Shown: positions 40,338-41,114 of the stretch, one piece after another
Position numbering within the stretch: the stretch's first letter is position 1
Layout of the letters: each line of letters begins with the position of its first letter
Origin: Escherichia phage Ec_O157kw
Reading direction: 5' to 3' (one strand)
Length of the DNA: 64,000 nucleotides
Sequence record: PV857777.1
Translations under genes and position numbers: made by a program
The notes under the pieces: model-generated
What the model saw: only the letters and a program-made list of their open reading frames with translations
The model's database searches: none
What the model was told of the DNA's origin: nothing

Positions 40338-41114
40338 TTATACTCTTGAACCGTATACGGCTCCAACGTTTTGCCATGTTGGAGCCGATCCTGCTACAGC
40401 AGCACCAGGATTTGTCGGAGGTGTTGAATAACCATTACCTGGATTAGCATATTGACCTGGTTGACCAACTTCACCTCCACCGCCAGCCCAATATTGGCCA
40501 GTATTACCACCAGCACCTGGTGCTGTTAAGCTAGCATTTCCACCAGGCCATCGAGCACCATTATTTCCGCCTAAACCAAATGGACGACCACCGCCGCCTC
40601 CACATACATATTTTCCTGCCCAGTTATTGGCTTGCGAATATCCACCGCCACCACCGCCGCCTCCAGCAATAGCTCCCCCATTATTAATTCGTAGGCGTCC
40701 ACCTATATCATTTTGGATACATACACCACCGTCAGACGCTCCAATCGCTCCAGCAGCCCAACCATTCCCGCCGCGACCATACATCGTTACGCCGTGTATA
40801 TTCAATTGAACATATTCATTCGGTGTATCTCCGTACATGAAGAATAAAGGAACGTCTCTAGAATATGATACTAAATCTCCAGTGATATTAAACACTATAG
40901 GTGCACTACCTGCCTCAAAACATCTATCTCGGAACCATTGACCATTGAAGTTATGGTCTGCTCCAAGCGTGTGAATTACTTCAACAGATCGACCTATCAT
41001 ATTACTCATCCAGAACGGAATGCCCATTCTTAATCGTTGGGCCGCGCCGCCCATCCAATTTTGTCCTGTATTAACTACTGCAGACGATCCTACCCACGGT
41101 CCTGCTACTGCCAT
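40338..41114 (-). CDS. 38: gp38 receptor-recognising adhesin, T2/T6 type with glycine-rich motifs
   Basis: ATG at 41114 after SD GGAGG; 258 aa; poly-Gly islands (GGGGGGGG, GGGGG) between variable segments; conserved C-terminus [19 protein letters not shown]. Confidence 0.85.

What the first reader, a model, noticed from the sequence alone, without database searches (positions are those of the whole stretch)
40338..41114. gp38 is a glycine-rich adhesin, which implies T2/T6-type receptor recognition
gp38 here is 258 aa with several poly-glycine islands (GGGGGGGG, GGGGG, GGNNG) separating short variable segments, and a conserved [20 protein letters not shown]-terminus. This is the architecture of T2-family adhesins that cap the gp37 tip; the variable loops between glycine islands set OmpA/OmpF/Tsx/FadL specificity. 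T4 gp38 is instead a short assembly chaperone. The GC-rich Gly codons also create the spurious proline-rich plus-strand ORF 40627-40809.
Basis: partly seen in the sequence, partly recalled or inferred. Interest (0 to 1): 0.45.

Follow-up and report, generated by a model that had tools for sequence, protein, structure and literature searches.

The report
Known T2-type gp38 adhesin, OmpC class
This is an ordinary, already deposited copy of the glycine-rich tail-fibre tip adhesin gp38 of a T2-like coliphage, and its receptor loops place it with the phages AR1 and PP01 that bind the porin OmpC of E. coli O157:H7.

Summary
Window 40338-41114 (- strand) encodes a 258-aa protein with 23.6% glycine, in runs G8, G5 and G4 plus GGNNG. 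It lies between gp37 and holin t.

- **Family:** it matches Pfam GP38 (3e-72) and Gp38_N (8e-21). It also matches two solved adhesin structures: PP01 gp38 (9V85, about 97% identical over residues 41-258) and S16 gp38 (6F45).
- **Not the T4 type:** T4 gp38 (183 aa) shows no similarity.
- **Partner fibre:** gp37 carries the S74 self-cleaving chaperone domain typical of T2-type fibres.
- **Receptor class:** The receptor-binding half is 95-96% identical to PP01 and AR1 (OmpC of O157). It is only 47-60% identical to the T2, T6, Ox2, FL08, S16 and Sf22 adhesins.
- **Loops:** loops A-C equal PP01. Loops D and E carry a natural allele (NTGQ-YW and NPGNGYS). The same allele occurs in phages e11/2 and CAM-21 (e11/2 known, and CAM-21 recorded, as O157:H7 phages), Sf23 (Shigella), KMB42 and KMB39.
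- **Already public:** the exact protein is in NCBI as "receptor-recognizing protein".
- **Antisense ORF:** the proline-rich + strand ORF 40627-40809 is an artefact of the GGN glycine codons.

Verdict: correct annotation, already known, low interest.

The parts
40338..41114 (-). gene 38: 258-aa monomeric long-tail-fibre tip adhesin (stop codon 40338-40340)
   Evidence: ORF. Pfam GP38 PF05268 3.2e-72 and Gp38_N PF21721 7.6e-21. PHROG 2056 'tail fiber protein; host specificity' 3.5e-108. PDB 9V85 2.6e-138 and 6F45_D 4.2e-53.
40995..41114 (-). residues 1-40: N-terminal attachment domain that docks on the gp37 trimer tip
   Evidence: Gp38_N matches residues 1-40. The docking role is inferred from the S16 structure and the PP01/T2 chimera work (PMC12032242; PMC12892980).
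40779..40994 (-). residues 41-112: conserved N-terminal part of the beta-helix domain
   Evidence: 100% identical to PP01 and AR1, 93% to FL08, 82% to T6. Domain names come from 9V85 and 6F45.
40407..40778 (-). residues 113-236: glycine-rich motifs (polyglycine-II sandwich) interleaved with receptor loops A-E
   Evidence: Glycine runs and loop alignment. 96% identical to PP01 over this part, 47-59% to the other classes.
40743..40760 (-). loop A (residues 119-124, WAAGAI)
   Evidence: Identical to PP01 and AR1. Loop limits from PMC12892980.
40605..40634 (-). loop B (residues 161-170, [10 protein letters not shown]; Y159 lies just before it)
   Evidence: Identical to PP01 and AR1. PP01 Y159, Q161, K168 and Y169 matter for infection.
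40548..40565 (-). loop C (residues 184-189, NNGARW)
   Evidence: Identical to PP01 and AR1.
40491..40505 (-). loop D (residues 204-208, NTGQY, followed by W209): differs from PP01 NTGTGY-Y
   Evidence: PP01 T207I is a convergent adaptive change. Deletion of G208 is tolerated and Y209 is essential. That tyrosine is kept here as Y208.
40425..40445 (-). loop E (residues 224-230, NPGNGYS): Asn227 in place of PP01 Ala228
   Evidence: In PP01 loop E enters the cleft between OmpC loops 5 and 7. A228D or its deletion abolishes infection, while A228V/L is tolerated.
40341..40406 (-). residues 237-258: conserved C-terminus ([22 protein letters not shown]), which returns to the beta-helix domain
   Evidence: Invariant columns G237 A239 V240 G242 P245 W247 V250 G251 G255. 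The assignment to the beta-helix domain comes from PMC12032242.
41120..41124 (-). Shine-Dalgarno GGAGG, 5 nt before the ATG of gene 38
   Evidence: Read directly from the sequence.
41126..41141 (-). AGGGGC-UUCG-GCCCCU hairpin in the 31-nt gap between genes 37 and 38
   Evidence: Fold -17.8 kcal/mol, z -2.2. A hairpin is present at this place in PP01, AR1, FL08, CAM-21, T2, Sf22, T4, T6 and S16, and the stem sequence differs in S16.
41146..44475 (-). gene 37: 1109-aa distal half-fibre, the shaft that carries gp38
   Evidence: Pfam Gp34_trimer and Peptidase_S74. The C-terminal 190 aa match S16 gp37 in 6F45_A at 5.2e-45.
41149..41481 (-). gp37 residues 999-1109: S74-type intramolecular chaperone, presumed to be cut off before Ser999 (SDIRVK)
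   Evidence: Peptidase_S74 matches residues 999-1058. The SDIRVK motif is at 999. The cleavage itself is inferred by analogy.
44484..45140 (-). gene 36: hinge connector of the distal half-fibre
   Evidence: Pfam Phage_T4_gp36 1.6e-28.
45164..45171 (-). TATAAATA late-promoter consensus upstream of gene 36, the likely start of the 36-37-38 late transcript
   Evidence: It is the only exact match on this strand within 5 kb upstream of gene 38. Function is inferred, and the motif count in the window is not above chance.
39649..40305 (-). gene t: holin, the downstream neighbour as in all T-even phages
   Evidence: Pfam Phage_holin_T 1.6e-116.
40627..40809 (+). spurious 60-aa proline-rich antisense ORF, not a gene
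   Evidence: CCN codons are read from the complement of GGN codons, with a TTG start and no ribosome-binding site. A stop at its codon 5 is present in PP01, AR1, PE37 and HY01. No PHROG hit.

Best explanation
Gene 38 encodes the monomeric receptor-binding adhesin that caps the long tail fibre of a T2-like Tequatrovirus.

**Inferred mechanism**
1. The gp37 trimer folds with the help of its own C-terminal S74 chaperone domain. That domain is then cut off in front of Ser999.
2. One gp38 molecule docks on the exposed gp37 tip through residues 1-40.
3. The glycine-rich motifs of residues 113-236 fold as polyglycine-II helices packed into a sandwich. This holds five short loops (A-E) at the very tip of the fibre.
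4. These loops bind the extracellular loops of the porin OmpC, as in phages PP01 and AR1. Loop E inserts into the cleft between OmpC loops 5 and 7. Loops B and D position loop E, and loop B may also touch LPS sugars.
5. This reversible binding starts adsorption.

**Shown here:** family membership, domain layout, the gp37 partner type, and near-identity of the loops with the PP01/AR1 class.

**Inferred:** the fold (from 97% identity to a crystal structure), the gp37 cleavage, and OmpC as the receptor.
For: **Family and structure**
- Full-length hits to both Pfam adhesin models and to PHROG 2056.
- 9V85 (PP01 gp38 receptor-binding domain) matches residues 37-258 at 2.6e-138, with six differences over residues 41-258. 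6F45_D (S16 gp38) matches residues 1-256 at 4.2e-53.

**Gene context**
- The gene order 36-37-38-t is as expected.
- gp37 has the S74 domain, an SDIRVK motif and a tip homologous to S16 gp37.
- T4 gp37 has a Collar domain and no S74 domain.

**Receptor class**
- The receptor-binding half is 96% identical to PP01 and 95% to AR1. It is 60% to Sf22 and 47-55% to S16, T2, T6, 121/2022-2B, FL08 and Ox2.
- For scale, pairs within one class score 95% (T6 vs 121/2022-2B) and 81% (FL08 vs Ox2).
- Loops A-C are identical to PP01.
- PP01 residues Y159, Q161, K168, Y169, W189, Y209 and Y230 are all conserved.
- PP01 gp38 binds OmpC of O157, shown by cross-linking and mutagenesis (PMC12892980).

**Hosts of phages with the same allele**
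- Phages whose receptor-binding half is 100% identical have recorded hosts O157:H7 (CAM-21), Shigella (Sf23) and other E. coli (KMB42, KMB39). e11/2 has the same allele; I know it as an O157:H7 phage, but its record gives only Escherichia coli as host.
Against: - No adsorption data exist for a phage carrying exactly this loop D/E allele. None was found in the searchable literature.
- Asn227 replaces PP01 Ala228. The PP01 model places Ala228 in a hydrophobic cleft, and A228D abolishes infection. The detailed contact may therefore differ.
- PP01 host-range mutants can infect ompC-null cells after single changes at Q161 or W189. Receptor choice in this class is therefore labile.
- The fold and the gp37 cleavage were not tested directly here.
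Confidence: 0.82

Rival explanations
1. The adhesin is of the PP01/AR1 kind, but the loop D/E allele (Q207, loss of the PP01 Gly208, W209, N227) shifts which OmpC variants are accepted. It might instead add an OmpC-independent route such as LPS. Host range would then differ from PP01.
For: - All differences from PP01 in the receptor-binding half, apart from A198S and V253I, lie in loops D and E.
- PP01 position 207 changed convergently under selection on O157:H7.
- PP01 A228 is sensitive to polar substitution.
- Asn at the loop E tip also occurs in Sf22, which uses Shigella OmpC.
- The same allele is found in phages isolated on both O157:H7 and Shigella.
Against: - Deletion of PP01 G208 is tolerated and the essential Tyr is kept.
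- The loop E tip is naturally polymorphic (A in PP01/AR1, S in HY01, N in PE37), including in phages that have the PP01-type loop D.
- CAM-21 has the identical allele and its recorded host is O157:H7, the PP01 host.
Confidence: 0.25
2. The adhesin recognises one of the receptors the first reader listed (OmpA, OmpF, Tsx or FadL) rather than OmpC.
For: These are the commoner receptors of gp38 adhesins, and only a small group binds OmpC (PMC12032242). The N-terminal 112 residues are 95-96% identical to those of FL08 (OmpA) and of 121/2022-2B, whose receptor half is T6-like.
Against: The N-terminal part does not set specificity. In the receptor-binding half, identity to T6, T2, FL08 and Ox2 is 48-53%, or 30-38% when shared glycines are ignored. 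Loop identity to T2, T6 and FL08 is 0-17% in loops A-C and at most 50% in loops D and E. A tblastn search with the FL08 receptor half did not retrieve this class.
Confidence: 0.04
3. The protein is only an assembly chaperone for gp37, as in T4, and is absent from the virion.
For: It carries the same gene name and sits at the same map position as T4 gene 38.
Against: It has no sequence similarity to T4 gp38 (E=17). The T4 record itself calls the two proteins unrelated. gp37 here carries its own S74 chaperone domain. The homologous S16 gp38 was crystallised bound to the gp37 tip (6F45).
Confidence: 0.01
4. The proline-rich + strand ORF 40627-40809 is a real overlapping gene.
For: The stop-free stretch on this strand runs for 114 codons in the window and in four of the five compared relatives with the same receptor-half allele; it is 103 codons in Sf23.
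Against: - It has a TTG start and no ribosome-binding site.
- In PP01, AR1, PE37 and HY01 a stop falls at its codon 5, although gp38 there is 95-97% identical.
- Substitutions against PP01 fall 12/4/69 on gp38 codon positions 1/2/3, which shows selection on the gp38 frame.
- It has no PHROG hit.
Confidence: 0.01

Closest known systems
gp38 of Escherichia phage PP01 (PDB 9V85) and of phage AR1: OmpC-binding adhesins of O157:H7 phages
   Same: Same family, length (258 vs 259 aa), gene context and domain layout. The receptor-binding half is 95-96% identical and loops A-C are identical. All residues shown to matter in PP01 are conserved, except A228.
   Different: Loop D is NTGQ-YW instead of NTGTGYY (PP01) or NTGTRYY (AR1). 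The loop E tip is Asn instead of Ala. There are also A198S and V253I, and 7 changes in residues 8-19 relative to PP01.
gp38 of phages e11/2, CAM-21, Sf23, KMB42 and KMB39
   Same: The receptor-binding half (residues 113-258) is 100% identical. The whole protein differs by one residue from CAM-21 and KMB42. The 36-37-38-t locus is 99.7% identical in DNA to KMB42.
   Different: Only N-terminal substitutions: V14I in CAM-21, S38G in KMB42, and several in residues 4-21 of Sf23 and e11/2.
gp38 of Salmonella phage S16 (PDB 6F45), the structural prototype with the polyglycine-II sandwich
   Same: Same three-domain layout and same glycine-rich motifs. The partner gp37 has the same S74 chaperone domain. 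Its receptor is also OmpC, of Salmonella.
   Different: Only 47% identical in the receptor half, with loops unrelated in sequence and partly shorter. It belongs to a different genus (Gelderlandvirus).
   Same: Same family and architecture. The glycine motifs and the C-terminus are conserved. The N-terminal 112 residues are 95% identical to FL08 and 70% to T6.
   Different: The variable loops are unrelated, with 30-38% identity in the receptor half outside shared glycines. Their receptors differ.
T4 gp38, the tail fibre assembly chaperone
   Same: Same gene name and same map position between gene 37 and gene t.
   Different: It is unrelated in sequence, 183 aa long and not glycine-rich, and has no Pfam adhesin domain. 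In T4 the gp37 tip itself binds the receptor.

Membership tests
T2/T6-type gp38 tail fibre adhesin (Pfam GP38 + Gp38_N) | Sequence match to the family models above their curated cut-offs | tested here: met
   PF05268 scores 243.4 bits (cut-off 25) over residues 45-258. PF21721 scores 74.3 bits (cut-off 25) over residues 1-40. PHROG 2056 3.5e-108.
T2/T6-type gp38 tail fibre adhesin (Pfam GP38 + Gp38_N) | Modular layout: conserved N-terminus, glycine-rich motifs alternating with hypervariable segments, conserved C-terminus | tested here: met
   In the alignment with 8 adhesins the glycine runs and the C-terminus are invariant, and the segments between them are variable.
T2/T6-type gp38 tail fibre adhesin (Pfam GP38 + Gp38_N) | Polyglycine-II sandwich fold with protruding loops | tested here: met
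   By sequence only: about 97% identity over residues 41-258 to the crystal structure 9V85, and 4.2e-53 to 6F45_D. No separate model was built.
T2/T6-type gp38 tail fibre adhesin (Pfam GP38 + Gp38_N) | Encoded directly after gene 37 and before holin t; gp37 ends in a self-cleaving S74 chaperone domain rather than a T4-type receptor-binding tip | tested here: met
   Gene order. Peptidase_S74 at gp37 residues 999-1058 and SDIRVK at 999. Match to S16 gp37. T4 gp37 has Collar and no S74.
T2/T6-type gp38 tail fibre adhesin (Pfam GP38 + Gp38_N) | One gp38 molecule is physically present at the fibre tip of the virion | not testable with these tools
   Needs virion proteomics or electron microscopy.
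PP01/AR1 class of gp38 (OmpC of E. coli O157) | Receptor-binding half clusters with PP01/AR1 at within-class identity | tested here: met
   95-96% to PP01/AR1. Other classes score 47-60%. Within-class references score 81-95%.
PP01/AR1 class of gp38 (OmpC of E. coli O157) | Functionally mapped PP01 residues conserved (Y159, Q161, K168, Y169, Y209, A228, Y230) | tested here: inconclusive
   Six of seven are conserved. A228 is Asn here, a substitution not tested in the PP01 study, where Asp and deletion abolish infection and Val/Leu are tolerated.
PP01/AR1 class of gp38 (OmpC of E. coli O157) | Adsorption depends on OmpC | not testable with these tools
   Needs plating and adsorption assays on ompC mutants. 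Indirect support only: a phage with the identical receptor half (CAM-21) has O157:H7 as its recorded host.
T4-type gp38 assembly chaperone | Sequence similarity to T4 gp38 | tested here: not met
   BLASTP E=17, with no meaningful alignment.

The most novel reading that the evidence does not exclude
The natural loop D/E allele carried here (Q207, one residue shorter, W209, Asn227 at the loop E tip) may change which OmpC variants the adhesin accepts. It also sits uneasily with the published PP01 model, which has a hydrophobic loop E tip inserting into a hydrophobic OmpC cleft. CAM-21 carries this allele and has O157:H7 as its recorded host, so the allele offers a ready-made natural test of that model.
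Probability: 0.25. Interest if true: 0.3.

Novelty: already known. Interest (0 to 1): 0.08.

Why it matters
It matters little beyond correct annotation. Knowing that the fibre tip is a PP01/AR1-class adhesin predicts OmpC as the primary receptor and an O157:H7/Shigella-type host range. That is useful when choosing or engineering phages for biocontrol. The only mildly useful lead is the loop D/E allele. It is widespread in nature and could be compared with the PP01 allele to refine the recently published gp38-OmpC contact model.

Tried and rejected
- **NCBIfam:** no model hit for gp38.
- **Rfam and tRNA scans:** nothing found in the whole window.
- **Literature on receptors:** searches for receptor data on CAM-21 or other carriers of the exact allele gave nothing usable. 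Two paper searches failed on term syntax.
- **Trojet et al. 2011:** its receptor table is not in the held text.
- **BASEL phages:** the receptors for these phages are only in figures, so I did not use them as references.
- **K3 gp38:** not fetched. Ox2 and FL08 served as the OmpA references instead.
- **Structure prediction:** I did not run a prediction or a fold search, because a crystal structure at about 97% identity (9V85) is stronger evidence than a model.
- **Source of the window:** I compared it with eight public contigs that encode the identical protein. None is identical over 3.8 kb, with 18 to 1143 mismatches.
- **T4-type chaperone reading and antisense-ORF reading:** both tested and rejected.

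Full report
**What is there**

On the - strand an ORF ends at 40338. The ORF listing starts it at TTG 41126 (262 aa). The ATG at 41114 gives 258 aa and lies 5 nt downstream of GGAGG. The same ATG is the annotated start in PP01, AR1, S16, CAM-21 and KMB42.

The protein has 61 glycines (23.6%), and 48 of them lie in the last 146 residues. The glycine runs are G151-158, G172-176 and G211-214, plus GGNNG at 182-186. It is the most glycine-rich of the 67 ATG-initiated ORFs of at least 100 aa in the window, whose median is 5.2%. GC content rises to 0.525 over 40400-40800, against about 0.35 around it.

**Context**

- Upstream on the same strand lie gene 36 (44484-45140, Pfam Phage_T4_gp36) and gene 37 (41146-44475, 1109 aa).
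- Downstream lies holin t (39649-40305).
- A TATAAATA late-promoter consensus sits at 45164-45171 (-), just before gene 36.
- The 5.6-kb locus is 99.7% identical to Escherichia phage vB-Eco-KMB42. It is 93.8% identical to AR1.
- A 24-kb stretch around the gene is 97.5% identical to vB_EcoM-BECP11.

The window therefore comes from a Tequatrovirus of the AR1/PP01 neighbourhood.

**Family**

- The protein hits Pfam GP38 (3.2e-72, residues 45-258) and Gp38_N (7.6e-21, residues 1-40).
- It hits PHROG 2056, "tail fiber protein; host specificity", at 3.5e-108.
- Two solved structures match. 9V85 is the receptor-binding domain of PP01 gp38 (2.6e-138, six differences over residues 41-258). 6F45 chain D is S16 gp38 (4.2e-53).
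- According to the papers behind these structures, the glycine-rich motifs form polyglycine-II helices packed into a sandwich, and the variable loops project from it to bind the receptor. The N-terminal domain attaches the single gp38 molecule to the gp37 trimer (PMC12892980; PMC12032242).

**The partner fibre is of the T2 type**

- gp37 has a Peptidase_S74 intramolecular chaperone domain at residues 999-1058.
- It has an SDIRVK motif at Ser999.
- Its last 190 residues match the S16 gp37 fragment crystallised with gp38 (6F45_A, 5.2e-45).
- T4 gp37 instead has a Collar domain and fibre repeats, with no S74 domain.
- T4 gp38 is 183 aa, has no Pfam hit and shows no similarity to the window protein (E=17).

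Removal of gp37 residues 999-1109 is inferred by analogy with other S74 domains. From my own knowledge, T2 gp37 is reported to lose about 120 C-terminal residues.

**Receptor class**

| Adhesin | Receptor | Source |
|---|---|---|
| T2 | FadL/OmpF | |
| T6 | Tsx | |
| Ox2, FL08 | OmpA | |
| PP01 | OmpC of O157 | |
| AR1 | OmpC (from my own knowledge) | not cited |
| Sf22 | Shigella OmpC | |
| S16 | Salmonella OmpC | |

The N-terminal 112 residues do not discriminate between classes. They are 95% identical to FL08, 96% to 121/2022-2B (whose receptor half is T6-like), 94% to PP01 and 97% to AR1.

The receptor-binding half (residue 113 to the end) does discriminate:

| Compared with | Identity to window |
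|---|---|
| PP01 | 96% |
| AR1 | 95% |
| Sf22 | 60% |
| T2, T6 | 53% each |
| FL08 | 51% |
| Ox2 | 48% |
| S16 | 47% |

For scale, pairs within one class score 95% (T6 vs 121/2022-2B) and 81% (FL08 vs Ox2). Ignoring columns where both proteins have glycine, the figures are 94% and 92% for PP01 and AR1, against 27-46% for all the others.

Loops A, B and C are identical to PP01.

**Where it differs from PP01**

In the receptor half the differences are A198S, V253I, loop D (NTGQ-YW vs NTGTGYY) and the tip of loop E (NPGNGYS vs NPGAGYS). These are sites with known effects in PP01:

- T207I arose in all four lines evolved on O157:H7.
- Deletion of G208 is tolerated, and Y209 is essential. That tyrosine is kept here as Y208.
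- A228D or deletion of A228 abolishes infection, whereas A228V/L does not. Asn was not tested.

The allele is not new:

- Residues 113-258 are 100% identical in e11/2, CAM-21, Sf23, KMB42 and KMB39.
- CAM-21 has O157:H7 and Sf23 has Shigella as recorded host. The e11/2 record gives only Escherichia coli; I know e11/2 as an O157:H7 phage.
- The loop E tip is naturally polymorphic: A in PP01/AR1, S in HY01, N in PE37 and here.
- The exact 258-aa sequence is already in NCBI (EBJ7676722.1, MBI9929984.1, "receptor-recognizing protein"). It sits in a 90% cluster of 92 members.
- It is encoded on at least 16 public contigs, always in the same 37-38-t-asiA context.

**The antisense ORF**

The + strand ORF 40627-40809 reads CCN codons from the complement of the GGN glycine codons. 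Its first codon base pairs with gp38 codon position 2. It starts with TTG and has no ribosome-binding site.

In PP01, AR1, PE37 and HY01 a stop falls at its fifth codon (LACE*), although their gp38 proteins are 95-97% identical. Substitutions between the window and PP01 fall 12/4/69 on gp38 codon positions 1/2/3. It has no PHROG match.

**Verdict**

Nothing here is new. The protein, its receptor-half allele, its family, its fold and the mechanism of its closest relative are all published or deposited.

The one open point is whether the loop D/E allele shifts OmpC variant preference or challenges the hydrophobic-cleft detail of the PP01 model. That needs adsorption assays.

Noticed in passing
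window 41126-41141 (- strand), between gene 37 stop (41146) and gene 38 ATG (41114): There is a GC-rich hairpin with a UUCG loop (AGGGGC-UUCG-GCCCCU), folding at -17.8 kcal/mol with z -2.2. It abuts the Shine-Dalgarno sequence of gene 38 and contains the alternative TTG start reported by the ORF listing. A hairpin sits at the same place in T2, T4, T6, Sf22, FL08, PP01, AR1 and S16. The S16 stem has a different sequence (GAGCC-UACG-GGCUC), which suggests selection for the structure. No T-run follows it on the - strand, so it looks like an mRNA-stabilising or processing element rather than a terminator.
   Followed up: partly
L009 (Escherichia phage ECML-363, OL631483.1 156477-158159), aligned to window 40238-41214: The deposited ECML-363 genome has a 309-bp insertion inside gene 38. 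The insertion is an error-ridden second copy of the neighbouring gene 38 sequence, with long G homopolymers, and the region carries no annotation. It is most likely an assembly or read-error artefact in the glycine-codon region and not biology.
   Followed up: partly
L021 (GCA_016389475.1, JAEJUL010000013.1, 165,853-bp contig): The exact gp38 protein is named "receptor-recognizing protein [Salmonella enterica]" in NCBI. The reason is that a phage-genome-sized contig (165,853 bp) sits in a bacterial assembly labelled Salmonella. It could be a contaminant or carried phage, or a hint of a wider host range. I did not resolve which.
   Followed up: partly
L015 (phage 121/2022-2B) and L007 (phage FL08) compared with window 40338-41114: These phages share the window's N-terminal 112 residues at 95-96%. 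Their receptor halves, however, are T6-like (95% to T6) and Ox2-like (81% to Ox2). This is a clear example of module exchange at the glycine-rich motifs. It also shows that whole-protein identity can mislead receptor prediction.
   Followed up: partly
window 45178-45199 (- strand), between gene 35 and gene 36: A strong terminator-like hairpin (GAGGGAGCC-UUCG-GGCUCCCUU followed by a T-run) lies a few bases upstream of the late-promoter consensus TATAAATA at 45171-45164. This looks like a terminator-promoter pair separating the gene 34-35 and gene 36-38 transcripts.
   Followed up: no
L012 (phage e11/2, KJ668714.2): Gene 38 of e11/2 is annotated from a start 30 nt upstream of the ATG used in the other records, giving 268 instead of 258 codons. 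Start annotation of gene 38 is therefore inconsistent between records.
   Followed up: no
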